Virus record (IMG/VR): IMGVR_UViG_2563366990_000003
Coordinates: 1 to 18,952 of that record
Reading direction: 5' to 3' (one strand)
From: a virus
Lineage: Duplodnaviria; Heunggongvirae; Uroviricota; Caudoviricetes
Length of the DNA: 18,952 nt
The position numbers were made by a program, and so were the translations under genes. The stretch's first letter is position 1. Each line of letters begins with the position of its first letter. Below the pieces are notes generated by a model, which did no database searches, had not been told where the DNA came from, and was given only the letters and a program-made list of their open reading frames with translations. Below, in pieces: positions 13,526-17,216 of the stretch.

Positions 13526-13777
13526 GGCCCACCCCACCAGGAGGACCCGCAAAATGATAATGGTTATCATTTGTAATGTAGTCCGGTTTCTTCCACCATC
13601 GCACCGGACCAGCGACCATGAGGGGACAACGCCGCGCTCCGTTAACGCGGTAAACCCCGGTGTGTATCGTTTTTGATTATCCCCGCACACTCGCGCAGAG
13701 GAGTCTCCCTGTCGGGCTGCGGTCTCTGTTAATACGGGAATACGGCGACAATACCGCGCCATGGATAATAAGGTCGC

Positions 13778-14002
13778 TCAACACACTGGCTGTAATGCAG
13801 CCGATACCATGCGGCATTTAGCGGCATTCATCGTACACTCAACGGTTAGCTCTTCATTCGTGGCATTCACCTGAAAGGTCCGGGAGTATAATTGCGTACA
13901 TTTACCACTGAACGAACCTTCAACAAGAACACGACCACGCTGCAAAATACGGAACGGAATTGTTCCCTGAAAAGGCTTTACGGTTACCAGTAATTTCTTC
14001 AT
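13778..14002 (-). CDS. Hypothetical 74-aa protein with four cysteines, between Rz and cos
   Basis: The ORF-track start is a TTG at 14020. An in-frame ATG at 14002 has a GGAGAA RBS and begins MKKLLVTVKPFQG. The region looks lower in GC than its flanks. No family recognised. Confidence 0.5.
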   Translation of the reverse strand: MKKLLVTVKPFQGTIPFRILQRGRVLVEGSFSGKCTQLYSRTFQVNATNEELTVECTMNAAKCRMVSAALQPVC

Positions 14003-14025
14003 GCATTCTCCGGATAACAAAAATA

Positions 14026-14493
14026 CTAGTTAATACACTGAGTGCGGATATATTCCTGCGCCCCTTCCAGCTGCTTCTGCATTGTCATCAACCGTTCTCT
14101 GAGGATGAAATAATCCCGTTCAGCGGTGTCTGCCAGTCGGGGGCCGGTTGCATTATCCACGCCGGAGGTGCCGGTGGCTTCACGCACGGTACCGTGGCAG
14201 GTGGCGTTGATCCGCAGGCGCTTACGACCAGCGGCAACATCAGCACGCAGAGTTTCATTTTCAGCTCTCGCATCGGCTAATTCCCTCGAGTATTTTGCAT
14301 CGAGCGCAGCAACATCGCGCTGGCGCACCTGCATATCAGTAATGGTGGCATTCGCCTGTTCCAGCTCTCTGGCTTTTTTATCGCGCTGCGCTTTGTAGGT
14401 GATGGCGTTATCGCGGTAATGATTCAGCCCCAGACTAAGCGCACCACAGGCCACCAGCAAGGCAATGATGACCACACACAGAACGCGGTTCAT
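14026..14493 (-). CDS. Rz: Rz i-spanin
   Basis: 155-aa ORF with an N-terminal TM segment ([18 protein letters not shown]) and a charged coiled-coil-like periplasmic part. Position downstream of the endolysin and the embedded Rz1 frame support the call. Confidence 0.85.
14088..14273 (-). CDS. Rz1: Rz1 o-spanin (lipoprotein), embedded in the +1 frame of Rz
   Basis: 61-aa ORF with a lipobox (LVVSAC) and a Pro-rich mature part ([27 protein letters not shown]) closely resembling lambda Rz1. ATG at 14273 confirmed. Confidence 0.82.
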
Positions 14494-14494
14494 T

Positions 14495-14593
14495 TCACCA
14501 CCAGCGTATCTGACCGATGAAATAACCGGAGGCCATAATCACAAACACCAGCCAGATAAGGATGAACTTCCAGGTGGATAATTTTTCAGCCAT
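14495..14593 (-). CDS. 32-aa single-pass membrane peptide ORF, not in the ORF track
   Basis: Read directly: GGGAGA RBS, 8-nt spacer, then ATG at 14593. Translation is [32 protein letters not shown]. Its TGA stop is separated from the Rz ATG by one nucleotide. Confidence 0.4.
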
Positions 14594-14668
14594 CACTCGA
14601 ATCTCCCGAATCAGTTTGCTAAAATTAAACACACTTTCTCCTTTGACTTTTCCGGAGTCAGGAAACAC

Positions 14669-14702
14669 AAAACCCCGCTTGCTACCAACAAACGGGGTTT
14701 TT
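14669..14702. terminator. Bidirectional intrinsic-terminator-like hairpin between the endolysin and the small ORF/Rz
   Basis: Read directly: 9-bp stem AAAACCCCG/CGGGGTTTT with a 15-nt loop, flanked by T-rich tracts on both strands. Confidence 0.4.
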
Positions 14703-14791
14703 ACTTTTATTCACTTAGGTTTTGCCAGTTCGCAGGATTTCGTGTTATCCGTCCGCGTTGGCCAACGTCATTTTTCAGCAAAATATTCTGC

Positions 14792-15325
14792 TTATCTGTC
14801 GATTCCCCAGCACGCCAGCGCGCTCTCCTGGTCACGACGGGATATCTGGCCGTAACAGTTGTTTGAGCGGATACGGCAGTCTCTGCCACCGTCCTTAATC
14901 CACCAGCGAATCGCTTCACACGCTCCCCTGCGATCGCCTGCATTAATTCGTTTATAAAACGTCGACGGGAAACACTTACCGGGGCCAATGTTATACGGGC
15001 AGAATGACGCAATACCCGCTTTCTGGGGTTCGGTCAGTGGCACTCTGATGTTTTTCTCCACCCATGCCAGCGCCTTATCCCGTTCGATAGCGTTAACCCG
15101 GTCGCATTTTTCCTTCGACAGCTTCATGCCAGGAATCACAGGCTTACCATCCACCATGATGGCACCCCGGCAGATGGTCCAGATACCCGCACCATCACGG
15201 TATGCCGTGGTGTGGTTGCCTTCCTTTTCATCCAGAAACTGGTCGAGGATTTCAGGCGCAGAAGCCCCTGCGGCAATCAGCGCCAGAACGGCAGCTGACA
15301 GGCCGTATTTGATTTTTGCGTTCAT
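14792..15325 (-). CDS. R: SAR endolysin (phage lysozyme, GH24 / T4-lysozyme fold)
   Basis: 177-aa ORF. The N-terminus has a weakly hydrophobic Gly/Ala-rich SAR-like segment (YGLSAAVLALIAAGASAPE). The catalytic E-x8-D-x5-T triad is present (EGNHTTAYRDGAGIWT). It matches my recollection of the R lysozyme of Shiga-toxin-type lambdoid phages. ATG at 15325. Confidence 0.9.
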   Translation of the reverse strand: MNAKIKYGLSAAVLALIAAGASAPEILDQFLDEKEGNHTTAYRDGAGIWTICRGAIMVDGKPVIPGMKLSKEKCDRVNAIERDKALAWVEKNIRVPLTEPQKAGIASFCPYNIGPGKCFPSTFYKRINAGDRRGACEAIRWWIKDGGRDCRIRSNNCYGQISRRDQESALACWGIDR

Positions 15326-15352
15326 GGATATTTATCAGGATTTATAGCTCTC

Positions 15353-15403
15353 TTATTCCTGGATATGTCAGATATATAATCCGGTACTCACGATGAATAT
15401 AAT
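15353..15403 (+). promoter_or_regulatory. Candidate sigma70 promoter(s) for the plus-strand 106-aa ORF
   Basis: Read directly: TATAAT hexamers at 15375-15380 and 15398-15403 in a very AT-rich intergenic region 50-75 bp upstream of the ATG at 15451. The -35 elements are poor (TTATTC). Confidence 0.3.
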
Positions 15404-15450
15404 CAACAGGCACCAGGACACACCCGGTAACAACAAATGAGATTTTATAA

Positions 15451-15771
15451 ATGAATAATAATGACAACAATTTACGCAAAGAGTTTTTGCAGATAATGAA
15501 CGAAAATGTTAAATCAGAATTAAAAGCGCTTATCCCGGATAATAGCGAAACCACTCAGGCCATTCTCTCAGAGCCTTACGGCATGCTTTCAACAGAAACA
15601 CTGGATATCATTATCACCACATTAACACCATTGATGCTTCAGCATCTGAAGCACAACATTAACAAATGGTTTAATGACGAACTCAGTCACCCGGGTTGTT
15701 CATGGGATAAAAACTTTGCCTGTCTGCAAAAAAAACGGCTCTTCAATAAACTATCGCTTAAGTTCAGATAA
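15451..15771 (+). CDS. Hypothetical 106-aa protein, plus strand, convergent with and overlapping the 3' end of the 385-aa gene
   Basis: It is the only plausible plus-strand gene in the window. It is AT-rich, Asn/Lys/Leu-rich and predicted helical. ATG at 15451, weak RBS. No family recognised. Confidence 0.5.
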   Translation: MNNNDNNLRKEFLQIMNENVKSELKALIPDNSETTQAILSEPYGMLSTETLDIIITTLTPLMLQHLKHNINKWFNDELSHPGCSWDKNFACLQKKRLFNKLSLKFR

Positions 15772-16921
15772 CCGCCCCAAACCGCCCTTTCAGATAAGTC
15801 AGCCCCGGCTGGATCCAATCATCTGGCTCAGTCTTAAAGGGTGGAGTATTGAAATCACGAAGAACGGTCTCCCGCACAACTGCATCCTTATCAGCACCAC
15901 TGACCAGCGCTTCAATCTCAGCGGCTACCTGCAGATACCCCATGCAACGACCAATGCGCTTCATTAGTCCCTGCTTTTTATTGTTCTTCAGGTAATCAAT
16001 GGCAAATTCAATGAGCGTCTCACAGTGCTGGTGCGATGGCGGTGTTACTTTTCCATTTTCTGAGATAGTTATTTTCCCGTCATCACCGGATACAACAAAG
16101 GATGGCCGGTTACACTCCCATTCCTGGTCACTGAAATCTACCTTCAGAAAGAACGGCCCGATTTTTGTAAAGGAACCTTTGGCATCGTTCCCCTCATGAC
16201 GGAATACACCGACTCCGGCGGTAACGAGTTCACCGGTTATCGTATTTGTGTCTATTTCGATGCTTACGGGAATGGAACAGAGGATACCTGGACTTCTCTC
16301 AACATCATGTTTGATGGCCTCATGAAAGCCACCAAAAGAATGAGCAATGAAACAATCACTGGCGAGATGCGTCCCCTTTAAAAAATTATCCAGAATCTCA
16401 CTATTTGCAGAGCGCTCTCTGTTTTTTTGAATACGGAAACACTCTGCGAGATTTCTGCTCATCACTTTCCGGCAATAATCGTAAAACGCCGCGAACTGCT
16501 CATCACGGCGTTTTTTTTCACCTTCGGAAGGGATCTGCACCGACAGTTTTTTATTCAGTTCAACGACGCTGTTCTCCAGTTTTTCAATGCGTGATTCGAT
16601 ATCATCTTTTTCTGACTGTATCGTGTTATATGCATTGTTAATTTGTATGGTATACCGCTCTTCTGAACAGAGGCGCTTTTCCCGTGACTGTTCATCCCCT
16701 TCACATAAAGCGGCAGCAATATCCATGAAAAACTGCTTCGCCTTCTTTTTCGCCTCAGCTTCGTAAAATTCCAGCGTGGCACCTTCAGTACGGTCAAGAC
16801 TAATCGCCACATATGGCGACAACAACGACGGCTGCCCGGCAATTTCCAGTGCCACAGTAACAGTAATCTTATCCGGGTAATTATTTATCCCTTTAACAAC
16901 CAGTTCGTATTGTTTATTCAT
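15764..16921 (-). CDS. Hypothetical 385-aa protein inserted between holin and endolysin; function unknown
   Basis: ATG at 16921 lies 3 nt after the holin stop, with GGGGAGAG as RBS. The ORF is long and uninterrupted in AT-rich DNA. Architecture by eye: N-terminal domain, a central charged heptad-like segment (about aa 85-170) and a C-terminal Cys/His-containing domain. No signal peptide or TM segment. No family recognised. Confidence 0.8.
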   Translation of the reverse strand: MNKQYELVVKGINNYPDKITVTVALEIAGQPSLLSPYVAISLDRTEGATLEFYEAEAKKKAKQFFMDIAAALCEGDEQSREKRLCSEERYTIQINNAYNTIQSEKDDIESRIEKLENSVVELNKKLSVQIPSEGEKKRRDEQFAAFYDYCRKVMSRNLAECFRIQKNRERSANSEILDNFLKGTHLASDCFIAHSFGGFHEAIKHDVERSPGILCSIPVSIEIDTNTITGELVTAGVGVFRHEGNDAKGSFTKIGPFFLKVDFSDQEWECNRPSFVVSGDDGKITISENGKVTPPSHQHCETLIEFAIDYLKNNKKQGLMKRIGRCMGYLQVAAEIEALVSGADKDAVVRETVLRDFNTPPFKTEPDDWIQPGLTYLKGRFGAVI

Positions 16922-16924
16922 CGT

Positions 16925-17140
16925 CTACTCTCCCCGTGCCGCCTTGCGCCGGTCCTCTTTAATTTTGAAATACAGGTTTGTCAGGTACGTCAGCAACCCA
17001 AACAGCAGACTCCCCAGCACACCTATTGCCGCCCACTGAGACGGGGAAACCCTGTCCAGCAACTGCAGGAACCAGTAGCCCGTTCCCACCGCTGACGTGG
17101 TGTATGACACACCTGTTGTGATTTTTTCCATCTGGTACAT
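16925..17140 (-). CDS. S: Class II holin of the phage 21 S21 pinholin family, with dual-start motif
   Basis: 71-aa product [71 protein letters not shown], near-colinear with S21 as I recall it. It has two TM segments and Met1/Met4 starts (antiholin/holin). GGAG RBS. The ORF-track start at 17194 is a GTG further upstream. Confidence 0.9.
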
Positions 17141-17216
17141 ACCCCGTCTCCCGCAATCCGGAAGCTCACAACAATATAAAGACCACCGGCACACACCGAT
17201 GGTCCCTTGCGCATGC

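What the first reader, a model, noticed from the sequence alone, without database searches (positions are those of the whole stretch)
14495..14593. Unannotated 32-aa membrane peptide ORF translationally coupled to Rz
It is below the ORF-track size cutoff but has a strong RBS, an ATG start, a clean single TM helix, and a stop one nucleotide before the Rz start codon. Lambda has no gene at this position between R and Rz. Small membrane peptides in lysis cassettes can act as antiholins, lysis-timing modulators or spanin partners.
Basis: seen in the sequence. Interest (0 to 1): 0.55.

Follow-up and report, generated by a model that had tools for sequence, protein, structure and literature searches.

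The report
Portable small membrane-protein cassette before Rz
The small ORF before the Rz lysis gene is a real, conserved 45-residue membrane protein (13 residues longer than first read) carried on a 220-bp cassette that sits in the late genes of many phages and appears to be gated by its own antisense RNA; its function is still untested.

Summary
The ORF is real, and it lies on the minus strand. ATG 14593 to TGA 14495 gives 32 aa, and the stop is one base before the Rz ATG (14493). The conserved frame starts earlier, at GTG 14632 behind AAAGGAG, and gives 45 aa. This matches PHROG 6632 end to end and the RefSeq hypothetical WP_000459349.1.

Fourteen divergent homologues (Enterobacterales, Pseudomonas, Azoarcus) show purifying selection: pS 0.68, pN 0.27. 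The first 13 codons are also under protein-level selection.

The gene travels as a roughly 220-bp cassette: a covarying hairpin that looks like a bidirectional terminator, a leader, a strong SD, and a GTG/TTG-start ORF. It sits between five endolysin types and at least three i-spanin families (Rz, DUF2514 and others). It also sits in baseplate, tail and internal-virion clusters, so it is not lysis-specific.

Synonymous sites in codons 3-6 and 10-12 are frozen. On the opposite strand they form a TG-extended -10 in all 27 representatives, aimed at the leader and hairpin. This predicts a cis-antisense RNA of about 73 nt over the translation start. A variant cassette supplies an unrelated antisense promoter at the same place.

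Best reading: a late-expressed inner-membrane peptide under antisense control, built like a type I toxin module. No expression or toxicity data exist.

The parts
14495..14632 (-). 45-codon ORF plus stop: (V/M)[47 protein letters not shown] start. This is the conserved coding unit.
   Evidence: PHROG 6632 covers 45/45 positions, E 1.5e-28. PGAP calls a 45-aa homologue. pS 0.68 vs pN 0.27, and control frames show no such excess. All non-redundant representatives whose start codon was read (21 of 27) start GTG/TTG; the five Pseudomonas-type representatives shown start at TTG one codon later.
14495..14593 (-).
   Evidence: Met14 is invariant in 25 sequences. An SD-like 4-mer lies within 16 nt upstream of the ATG in 23 of 24 representatives; in the 13 sequences aligned it lies about 8-10 nt upstream.
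14638..14644 (-). Shine-Dalgarno AAAGGAG, 5 nt before GTG 14632.
   Evidence: Read from the sequence. A strong SD is conserved in the homologues.
14603..14607 (-). Internal SD-like GGGAG, 9 nt before ATG 14593.
14669..14701 (.). GC-rich hairpin AAAACCCCG...CGGGGTTTT with an A-tract on one side and a T-tract on the other. It looks like a terminator on both strands and forms the left edge of the cassette.
   Evidence: The terminator scan finds it. Covariation: 11 of 16 pairs and 7 of 10 pairs show double-sided compensatory changes. Homology with Sakai Sp6/Sp10 ends exactly here.
14597..14625 (+). Predicted antisense promoter: -35-like TCGAAT (14597-14602), 17-nt spacer, TG (14617-14618), -10 TAAAAT (14620-14625).
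   Evidence: TGNTAAAAT occurs once in the window. TGn plus T-A-n-n-n-T is kept in all 27 representatives. Synonymous sites under it are frozen.
14632..14705 (+). Predicted cis-antisense RNA of about 73 nt, complementary to the start codon, SD and leader of the ORF and ending at the hairpin and U-run. The ends are inferred, not mapped.
   Evidence: Geometry of promoter and terminator. Variant cassette L284 has an unrelated antisense promoter, TGGACA-18-TATACT, aimed at the same leader.
14495..14712 (-). The whole portable cassette: hairpin, leader, SD and ORF.
   Evidence: The same unit appears in unrelated gene contexts. Its boundaries were mapped.
14026..14493 (-). Rz (i-spanin). It starts 1 nt after the ORF stop. 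Rz1 is embedded at 14088-14273.
14792..15325 (-). R, a phage lysozyme with a hydrophobic N-terminus of the SAR type. It lies upstream of the cassette.

Best explanation
Window 14495-14712 (minus strand) is a self-contained cassette of about 220 bp inserted at the R|Rz junction of a lambdoid prophage. It encodes a 45-residue inner-membrane protein. The protein has a short basic amphipathic N-terminal helix predicted to face the cytoplasm, one transmembrane helix, and a 4-residue periplasmic tail.

The cassette has no detectable sense promoter and begins with a hairpin that looks like a terminator. The peptide would therefore be made only from late transcripts that read through the hairpin; in a lambdoid phage these would be Q-antiterminated. 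On the opposite strand, a TG-extended -10 promoter embedded in codons 3-6 is predicted to produce an RNA of about 73 nt. This RNA would run across the start codon, SD and leader and stop at the same hairpin. It would pair with the translation start and keep the peptide (and possibly the coupled Rz start) off until late transcription outruns it.

This architecture works like a type I toxin-antitoxin module plugged into a late operon. The peptide most likely acts on the inner membrane late in infection. In this cassette, which has a P21-type holin and an SAR-type endolysin, a membrane-perturbing peptide would be expected to speed up or sharpen lysis.

Shown here: the coding status, the 45-codon frame, the cassette boundaries, its mobility and gene contexts, the hairpin covariation, and the conserved antisense promoter-like element.

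Inferred: the topology, dependence on read-through, existence and action of the antisense RNA, and any toxicity or lysis effect.
For: Coding status: pS 0.68 vs pN 0.27 overall. Codons 14-45 give pS 0.82 and pN 0.24-0.36. Codons 2-13 give pS 0.40 and pN 0.17, with the second codon position least variable (0.07). Shifted and reverse frames show no such excess. The ORF is intact in 87 of 87 close relatives.

Family: PHROG 6632. The word-index search returned 79 clusters and the exhaustive search 76 representative clusters, nearly all small stand-alone proteins of 24-95 aa.

Structure: helix 4-17, break, helix 20-43, pLDDT 82. Five K/R on the N-terminal side against one on the C-terminal side.

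Cassette: the same hairpin, leader, SD and GTG/TTG ORF appears in E. coli, Salmonella, Edwardsiella, Citrobacter, Yersinia, Pantoea, Brenneria, Sodalis, Providencia, Pseudomonas and Azoarcus. The left boundary is at the hairpin and the right boundary at the stop codon. The hairpin covaries.

Antisense element: D3 is GAT in 12 of 12, F4 is TTT in 11 of 11 (while F23 uses TTC 8 and TTT 6), S5 is AGC in 13 of 13, L11 is TTG in 10 of 10, and R12 is CGA in 13 of 13. Codons 7-9 vary freely. Codon 4 encodes F, I, L, Y or S but always ends in T, which is the complement of the A at position 2 of the -10 hexamer. TGn plus T-A-n-n-n-T is present in all 27 representatives, and a hairpin with a U-run lies 75-80 nt downstream. 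In variant L284, the only promoter-like site in 520 nt is antisense, matches 10 of 12 consensus positions, and is aimed at the shared leader and hairpin.

No sense promoter was found on the minus strand of 13900-15500. The SD is paired more often than in shuffled controls, 0.80 vs 0.62, in 22 of 27 representatives.
Against: There is no expression evidence of any kind. The three Sakai prophages I checked (Sp6, Sp10, Sp15) lack the cassette, so the published Hfq CRAC peaks could not test the RNA there. The peptide is absent from the Sakai Ribo-seq supplements.

The -35 element is weak (3 of 6 matches), and the simple promoter scan did not call this promoter. A single TGNTAAAAT in a window this size is not significant on its own (expected 0.46), so the argument rests on conservation.

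The frozen synonymous sites could serve another purpose, such as the internal SD and its spacing, the structure of the translation start region, or recombination. The U-runs are short (4-5 U). SD occlusion is only a modest trend.

Classical type I toxin genes have their own promoter, and this one does not. Toxicity is untested. Always sitting at the endolysin/i-spanin junction within lysis cassettes could still reflect a lysis-specific role.
Confidence: 0.5

Rival explanations
1. Dedicated lysis accessory. A small membrane peptide, either 32 aa from the ATG or a 45/32 dual-start pair, that works with the holin, the SAR endolysin or the Rz i-spanin as an antiholin, timing modulator, releasin-like factor or spanin partner, and is translationally coupled to Rz.
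For: About 168 of 274 loci have the architecture lysozyme | ORF | Rz. In every lysis cassette the ORF is exactly at the endolysin/i-spanin junction. The endolysins are PF00959, GH19, GH108, CHAP and a 138-aa type. The i-spanins are Rz, DUF2514 and two other clusters. The stop lies 1 nt before the i-spanin start or overlaps it. Two non-homologous small hydrophobic proteins occupy the same position in other E. coli prophages: ECs_1966 (48 aa) and WP_000675931.1 (37 aa). Met14 is invariant and preceded by an SD-like motif, which recalls dual-start holins.
Against: The same protein and leader occur with no lysis gene adjacent. About 53 loci lie after a gpV-like spike. Others lie between tail genes I and J, between T7-like internal virion genes, or after a tail fibre or MuF protein. 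Relatives with the same R and Rz lack it. There is no match to any holin, releasin or spanin family. The periplasmic tail is only 4 residues, too short for spanin-type contacts.
Confidence: 0.2
2. Ordinary moron. A lysogen-expressed small inner-membrane protein that benefits the host or prophage, for example by superinfection exclusion that blocks DNA entry, as HK97 gp15 does. Under this reading its position next to Rz is incidental.
For: It is a cassette inserted between genes that are adjacent in relatives. It sits at junctions where morons are known to lie, such as tail I|J and K|I and after tail fibres. It is a small inner-membrane protein. It is present in 899 of 5426 complete E. coli genomes, with up to 7 places per genome.
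Against: No sense promoter lies within or upstream of the cassette, and only about 30 nt separate the hairpin from the SD. A terminator-like hairpin precedes the gene rather than following it. The conserved antisense promoter argues for repression outside the late phase. It is co-oriented with its late-gene neighbours wherever neighbours were identified; only same-strand neighbours were searched.
Confidence: 0.15
3. Pure coupling leader. The ORF exists only to bring ribosomes to the downstream gene after the hairpin, and the peptide itself has no function.
For: The stop abuts the next start in many contexts. The C-terminal codons TGG TGG TGA form an SD-like GGTGGTGA for the next gene.
Against: The amino-acid sequence and transmembrane character are conserved down to 40-50% identity, with pN much lower than pS. 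In SEN34 and Dryocola the next gene has its own AAGGAGG, 14-15 nt downstream. The Pseudomonas forms lack the RWW ending.
Confidence: 0.07
4. Not a gene. The open frame is a by-product of an RNA element, such as a terminator or an sRNA.
For: The surrounding RNA features are strongly conserved, and most genome records leave the ORF uncalled.
Against: Only this frame has pS well above pN (shifted frames 0.19/0.16 and 0.08/0.24 for the first 12 codons; reverse frames 0.41/0.35, 0.52/0.32, 0.23/0.40). It is the only forward frame free of internal stops in all 14 homologues, although one reverse frame is also stop-free in about half of them.
Confidence: 0.03

Closest known systems
PHROG 6632 / RefSeq WP_000459349.1 (45-aa hypothetical 'phage protein')
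   Same: Same family. The HMM match is full length and the O157 protein differs at 2 of 44 residues after the start codon.
   Different: Nothing differs at the sequence level. The family has no assigned function, no Pfam or NCBIfam model, and no description in the papers I searched.
Type I toxin-antitoxin modules (hok/sok, ldr/rdl, ibs/sib, zor/orz; symE/symR for the geometry of an antisense promoter inside the 5' coding region)
   Same: A small hydrophobic peptide under 60 aa, a non-ATG start, a partly occluded SD, and a predicted short cis-antisense RNA over the translation start that ends at an intrinsic terminator. Prophage-borne and mobile.
   Different: No sense promoter of its own. It is embedded co-directionally in late operons. 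It has no sequence similarity to any known toxin family. Toxicity and the antisense RNA are both unverified.
Dual-start holin/antiholin pairs (lambda S107/S105, phage 21 S71/S68)
   Same: A small membrane protein in a lysis cassette with two in-frame candidate starts, each preceded by an SD.
   Different: It has one transmembrane helix. The starts are 13 codons apart rather than 2-3. It lies after the endolysin, not before it. It has no holin Pfam match, and the window already has a P21-type holin at 16925-17194.
Mu gp25 releasin (DUF2730)
   Same: A small membrane-tethered protein encoded near a SAR endolysin and spanins, with a short cytoplasmic domain (PMC9239132).
   Different: Releasin is 99 aa and N-out/C-in, with a 73-aa acidic cytoplasmic domain. 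This protein is 45 aa, predicted N-in, with a basic 20-aa N-terminus, and does not hit DUF2730.
Phage morons (HK97 gp15, lambda bor/lom, phi80 cor)
   Same: An autonomous unit inserted between conserved late genes. It carries an intrinsic terminator and often encodes a small envelope protein.
   Different: Classical morons have a promoter, then an ORF, then a terminator, and are expressed from the prophage. Here the terminator comes first and the only promoter-like element is antisense.
Prophage anti-sRNAs AgvB/AsxR (Tree et al. 2014, PMC4104026)
   Same: Short prophage RNAs antisense to the late operon, built from an A-rich stretch, a terminator and a U-tail.
   Different: They map to the moron site downstream of PR', not to the R/Rz junction. 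They share no sequence with this element and act in trans on host sRNAs.

Membership tests
PHROG 6632 | Full-length match to the family HMM | tested here: met
   E 1.5e-28, covering 1-45 of 45 positions.
Type I toxin-antitoxin | Small (under 60 aa) hydrophobic membrane peptide | tested here: met
   45 aa; Kyte-Doolittle 2.13 over residues 24-42; helix 20-43.
Type I toxin-antitoxin | Antisense RNA that pairs with the toxin mRNA | tested here: inconclusive
   A TG-extended -10 and a downstream terminator are conserved on the antisense strand in all 27 representatives, and L284 has an independent antisense promoter. No transcript data exist.
Type I toxin-antitoxin | Toxin gene has its own promoter | tested here: not met
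   No sense promoter was found on the minus strand of 13900-15500. The cassette starts at the hairpin, about 30 nt before the SD.
Type I toxin-antitoxin | Peptide is toxic when overexpressed, and the RNA neutralises it | not testable with these tools
   Needs expression experiments.
Holin / antiholin | Match to a holin family, or position upstream of the endolysin controlling its release | tested here: not met
   No Pfam hit. It lies downstream of R, and the window has a separate PF04971 holin.
Holin / antiholin | Dual-start motif giving two products | tested here: inconclusive
   There is a GTG/TTG start plus an invariant Met14 preceded by an SD-like motif in 23 of 24 representatives. Initiation sites have not been mapped.
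Releasin (DUF2730) | DUF2730 domain; N-out/C-in topology with a long cytoplasmic C-terminal domain | tested here: not met
   No Pfam match. The positive-inside rule predicts N-in. Compared with PMC9239132.
Spanin (i-, o- or u-) | Periplasmic domain long enough to span the periplasm, or a lipobox | tested here: not met
   Only 4 residues follow the transmembrane helix, and there is no lipobox.
Moron | Inserted between genes that are adjacent in related phages | tested here: met
   rrrQ and rzpQ overlap in Qin. Homology with Sakai Sp6/Sp10 breaks exactly at the cassette edge.
Moron | Own promoter upstream and terminator downstream of the ORF | tested here: not met
   The terminator-like hairpin is upstream. 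There is no sense promoter, and the stop abuts the next gene.

The most novel reading that the evidence does not exclude
A promoter-less cassette built like a type I toxin module that plugs into phage late operons across Gamma- and Betaproteobacteria. A constitutive antisense RNA of about 73 nt holds a membrane-active 45-aa peptide (and the coupled downstream gene) off until late transcription swamps it. The cassette would then act as a portable late-phase membrane trigger or fail-safe that sharpens lysis timing. This would be a class of lysis or late-gene regulator not described before, and it would explain why small hydrophobic proteins recur just before i-spanin genes.
Probability: 0.25. 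Interest if true: 0.75.

Novelty: new variant of a known kind. Interest (0 to 1): 0.55.

Why it matters
The lysis cassettes of lambdoid and Shiga-toxin prophages are among the best-studied gene sets in biology. Even so, about one in six complete E. coli genomes carries this conserved membrane-protein gene between R and Rz with no function assigned, and it is usually not annotated at all.

If the peptide is membrane-active and gated by antisense RNA, it would add a regulatory layer to lysis timing, and therefore to Shiga-toxin release, since H-19B and Stx1a, Stx2a and Stx2c phages carry it. It would also be an example of a toxin-antitoxin-like module co-opted as a movable part of phage late operons.

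The work also gives annotators concrete guidance: the correct start is GTG (45 aa), and the cassette has recognisable boundaries. The proposed experiments are simple.

Tried and rejected
1. AgvB/AsxR identity. The C/A-rich stretch before the hairpin on the plus strand suggested a GcvB-target mimic, but the paper places these sRNAs at the moron site downstream of PR'.

2. Mapping Hfq CRAC peaks from Tree 2014 Table S2 onto the predicted RNA. EcOnc11 lies downstream of Rz, EcOnc33 lies inside the 3' end of nanS-p, and EcOnc22 lies in the Sp15 I|J gap over a different moron. Sakai Sp6, Sp10 and Sp15 lack the cassette, so none of these tests the prediction.

3. Rfam gave only a sub-threshold rimP-leader hit, which is just the terminator.

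4. Pfam, NCBIfam, PADLOC and PDB sequence searches of the peptide found nothing.

5. The Sakai Ribo-seq supplements do not contain the peptide. The microproteome preprint has no mention of prophage, lysis, spanin, endolysin or holin in its main text.

6. The promoter-like site CTGACC-18-CATAAT at 14510-14539 (+) from the simple scan was not pursued, because the TG-extended -10 in codons 3-6 proved conserved in all homologues. Conservation of this site itself was not examined.

7. SD sequestration by a leader stem is only a modest trend (0.80 vs 0.62) and is not individually significant. The consensus fold supports it in 13 sequences but not in 26.

9. Literature searches for a described gene between R and Rz, or for a type I toxin in lysis cassettes, found nothing relevant.
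Full report
**1. Observation**

The lysis genes of this window are on the minus strand. In transcription order they are:
- a P21-type holin (16925-17194, PF04971);
- variable cargo;
- lysozyme R (14792-15325, PF00959), whose hydrophobic N-terminus is of the SAR type;
- a 300-nt interval;
- Rz (14026-14493, PF03245) with Rz1 embedded (14088-14273, PF06085);
- a 74-aa ORF, then the terminase genes.

Within the interval, ATG 14593 opens a 32-codon frame ([32 protein letters not shown]). It ends at TGA 14497-14495, one base before the Rz ATG, and GGGAG lies 9 nt upstream of the ATG.

The frame is also open upstream. A GTG at 14632 lies 5 nt after AAAGGAG and gives 45 aa. A further GTG at 14668 would give 57 aa.

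**2. It is a real gene, and the 45-aa form is the conserved unit**

- PGAP annotates the 45-aa form in an O157:H7 genome (WP_000459349.1) but leaves it uncalled in two other close relatives.
- It matches PHROG 6632 (unknown function) over 45 of 45 positions, E 1.5e-28. It has no Pfam or NCBIfam model.
- Homologues at 40-69% identity occur in Salmonella, Enterobacter, Klebsiella, Citrobacter, Edwardsiella, Yersinia, Pantoea, Brenneria, Sodalis, Providencia and Pseudomonas, and in an Azoarcus MAG.
- An exhaustive profile search of 1.84 billion representatives finds only 76 clusters. All but one are small proteins of 24-95 aa; the exception is a 723-aa protein that matches only part of the hydrophobic stretch.

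Selection was measured by Nei-Gojobori counts on 14 divergent sequences.

| Region | pS | pN |
|---|---|---|
| Whole ORF | 0.68 | 0.27 |
| Codons 14-22 | 0.83 | 0.24 |
| Codons 23-45 | 0.82 | 0.36 |
| Codons 2-13 | 0.40 | 0.17 |

In codons 2-13 the second codon position is the least variable (0.07, against 0.30 and 0.29). Shifted and reverse frames show no comparable excess of pS over pN. This is the only forward frame free of internal stops in every homologue, although one reverse frame is also stop-free in about half of them. In the initial set of 15 divergent homologues every one starts with GTG or TTG, never ATG. Among the 27 non-redundant representatives, the 21 whose start codon was read are all GTG or TTG, and the five Pseudomonas-type representatives shown start at a TTG one codon later. 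S5, K6, R12, M14 and F23 are invariant in 25 sequences. All 87 close relatives that were fetched keep the 45-codon frame, though that sample was chosen by protein similarity. A few frameshifted copies exist.

AF2 predicts helix 4-17, a break at 18-19, and helix 20-43, with pLDDT 82. Five K/R lie before the hydrophobic segment and one after it. The positive-inside rule then gives N-in, C-out, with a 4-residue periplasmic tail (the topology is inferred).

**3. It is a portable cassette, not a fixed part of the lysis cassette**

Every homologue is preceded by the same non-coding unit: an A-tract, a GC-rich hairpin, a T-tract, a leader of about 30 nt, and a strong SD. The hairpin is maintained by compensatory changes. 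Eleven of 16 pairs in 13 sequences, and 7 of 10 pairs in 26 sequences, show double-sided changes.

In E. coli the window and Sakai prophages Sp6 and Sp10 are homologous from the R stop to GTGAATAAA. They diverge exactly where the hairpin's A-tract begins. At the other end, similarity stops at the ORF's stop codon. The unit is therefore window 14495 to about 14712.

Contexts were classified in 274 loci and checked with Pfam.

| Context | Approx. loci |
|---|---|
| R-type lysozyme, ORF, Rz | 168 |
| gpV-like baseplate spike, ORF, one of two downstream families | 43, plus about 10 with no or other downstream gene |
| GH19, GH108, CHAP or a 138-aa endolysin, ORF, Rz or another i-spanin (DUF2514 and two other clusters) | about 12 |
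| Pseudomonas tail genes (K/I, I/J) | about 15-20 |
| T7 gp14-like protein, ORF, SLT-domain protein | 1 |
| After a tail fibre | 1 |
| After a MuF polyvalent protein | 1 |

Wherever neighbours were identified the ORF is co-oriented with the flanking late genes, although only same-strand neighbours were searched. Within lysis cassettes it is always at the endolysin/i-spanin junction.

At least 80% of the 221-nt cassette is present in 899 of 5426 complete E. coli genomes, with up to 7 places per genome. It occurs in H-19B and in many Stx1a, Stx2a and Stx2c phages, mostly unannotated. Relatives with the same R and Rz flanks have something else at this site. Qin has nothing, because rrrQ and rzpQ overlap. 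Sakai Sp6, Sp10 and Sp15 have an antirepressor gene plus an unrelated 48-aa hydrophobic protein. The gene is therefore accessory to lysis.

**4. Extra nucleotide-level constraint and a predicted antisense RNA**

The synonymous rate in codons 2-13 is half that of the rest of the ORF. The codon table shows two frozen blocks.

| Residue | Codon use |
|---|---|
| D3 | GAT 12 of 12 |
| F4 | TTT 11 of 11 (F23 uses TTC 8, TTT 6) |
| S5 | AGC 13 of 13 |
| K6 | AAA 13 of 14 |
| E10 | GAG 13 of 14 |
| L11 | TTG 10 of 10 |
| R12 | CGA 13 of 13 |

Codons 7-9, between the two blocks, vary freely. On the opposite strand the two blocks read as a -35-like TCGCAA (TCGAAT in the window), a 17-nt spacer, and a TG-extended -10, TGcTAAAAT. 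All 27 non-redundant representatives keep TGn plus T-A-n-n-n-T. The hexamers seen are TAAAAT, TAATAT, TAAGAT, TATAGT and TAGAAT, so variation falls only at the weakly conserved positions 3-5.

Codon 4 encodes F, I, L, Y or S, yet its third base is always T. That T is the complement of the A at position 2 of the -10 hexamer. This constraint acts on the nucleotide, not on the protein.

About 75-80 nt downstream on that strand lie the hairpin and a U-run. In the window these elements are at:
- -35: 14597-14602
- TG: 14617-14618
- -10: 14620-14625 (the only TGNTAAAAT in the window)
- inferred start: about 14632
- inferred end: about 14705

The predicted RNA would be complementary to the start codon, SD and leader of the ORF.

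Independent support comes from a variant cassette, L284. About 1100 further E. coli genomes match only the hairpin and leader, and the one such locus examined, L284, is this variant. It shares the hairpin and leader, but entirely different sequence follows: an 8-codon mini-ORF and then a 37-aa hydrophobic peptide ending in IRWW. The only promoter-like site in 520 nt of L284 is antisense, TGGACA-18-TATACT. It matches 10 of 12 consensus positions, against 0.4 sites expected by chance, and it points into the same leader and hairpin.

No sense promoter was found around the cassette. A weaker observation is that the SD tends to be paired with the pyrimidine-rich tract after the hairpin (0.80 against 0.62 for shuffled controls).

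An SD-like 4-mer lies within 16 nt upstream of the invariant Met14 ATG in 23 of 24 representatives; in the 13 sequences aligned it lies about 8-10 nt upstream. The Pseudomonas forms keep it through a different codon pair.

**5. How it most likely works**

Shown:
- a conserved 45-aa membrane-protein gene;
- a mobile cassette with defined edges;
- a covarying hairpin;
- a conserved antisense promoter-like element aimed at the translation start.

Inferred:
- The peptide is made only from late transcripts that read through the hairpin.
- A constitutive antisense RNA of about 73 nt blocks its translation until late transcription is high. Through the stop/start junction it may also affect Rz.
- The peptide acts on the inner membrane.

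The architecture resembles a type I toxin-antitoxin module. In symE/symR, for instance, the antisense promoter lies inside the 5' coding region (general knowledge). I do not file it as a member, because the toxin-promoter criterion is not met and toxicity is untested.

In this window's cassette, which has a P21-type holin and an SAR-type endolysin, release is sensitive to membrane energisation (established knowledge of the phage 21 system). A membrane-perturbing peptide would therefore be expected to speed up or sharpen lysis. That step is speculation.

**6. Rivals**

- A dedicated lysis or spanin partner is favoured by the strict junction position, and by non-homologous small hydrophobic proteins sitting at the same place. 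It is weakened by the tail, baseplate and internal-virion contexts, and by the gene's absence from close relatives.
- A lysogen-expressed moron (superinfection exclusion, for example) fits the mobility. It does not fit the missing sense promoter, the upstream terminator or the antisense promoter.
- A pure coupling leader is contradicted by protein-level conservation.
- A non-coding reading is contradicted by the substitution pattern.

**7. Known relatives and novelty**

The sequence family already exists in databases as an uncharacterised hypothetical (PHROG 6632, WP_000459349.1). I found no paper that describes it. Mu releasin (DUF2730) is larger, has the opposite topology, and is unrelated. 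AgvB and AsxR lie elsewhere in the prophage.

What this analysis adds:
- the correct gene boundaries;
- the cassette structure and its boundaries;
- its distribution across late-gene junctions in several phage types;
- the conserved antisense element.

I rate it a new variant of a known kind: an antisense-controlled small membrane peptide, or moron. Interest is moderate, because every functional step still lacks experimental support.

Noticed in passing
L103:5625-5771 (Sakai Sp10 ECs_1966); also L104 ECs_5741 and L105 ECs_5713: In Sakai Sp6, Sp10 and Sp15 the R|Rz junction holds an antirepressor gene plus an unrelated 48-aa hydrophobic protein (MGWLMISDKLITLVKSLCVLVGISFLVMLVAIFFSTAWRVLTLSGLVG) that ends 7 nt before Rz. 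Non-homologous small hydrophobic proteins therefore recur directly upstream of the i-spanin gene.
   Followed up: partly
L284:1500-1760 (E. coli MFDS1006657): A variant cassette with the same hairpin and leader. Its SD feeds an 8-codon mini-ORF (MGREVLSL). A different 37-aa peptide follows (WP_000675931.1, ending IRWW, with the stop 1 nt before Rz), together with a strong antisense promoter, TGGACA-18-TATACT. About 1100 E. coli genomes match only the hairpin and leader of the window's cassette; L284 was the only such locus examined.
   Followed up: partly
window about 13582-13759; peak equivalent about 13648-13696 (+): This stretch is 94% identical to the Sakai Sp10 region that contains EcOnc11, one of the most abundant Hfq-bound orphan sRNA peaks in Tree et al. 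2014 (with EcOnc10 and EcOnc12 apparently at equivalent positions in Sp12 and Sp9). It lies downstream of Rz on the strand antisense to the late genes.
   Followed up: partly
window 15342-16921: Variable cargo between the holin and the endolysin: a 385-aa protein with an N-terminal DUF1327 domain (15764-16921, minus strand) and a 106-aa ORF on the opposite strand (15451-15771), in a lower-GC stretch (0.38-0.41). Close relatives carry different two-gene cargo at the same place (L001-L003). Neither protein hits PADLOC.
   Followed up: partly
L285:1492-1731 (Sakai Sp15, gap between tail genes I and J): EcOnc22 (about 85 nt on a northern blot, Hfq-dependent) maps antisense within a 240-nt I|J gap. 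The gap holds a 38-aa non-hydrophobic ORF flanked by two hairpins. This is the same junction that the 45-aa cassette occupies in the Pseudomonas reactans prophage (L018).
   Followed up: partly
window 14495-14503 and the homologous junctions: The C-terminal codons TGG TGG TGA form an SD-like GGTGGTGA just before the next gene's ATG. The cassette therefore brings a ribosome-binding site for whatever gene it lands in front of.
   Followed up: no
window 13778-14002 (-): A 74-aa ORF directly after Rz, annotated as hypothetical in relatives, with no Pfam or PADLOC match.
   Followed up: partly
plasmid records H73-H80: Eight large plasmid records from E. coli, Salmonella and Enterobacter encode the peptide. 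They may be phage-plasmids or plasmid-borne prophages. Their contexts were not examined.
   Followed up: no
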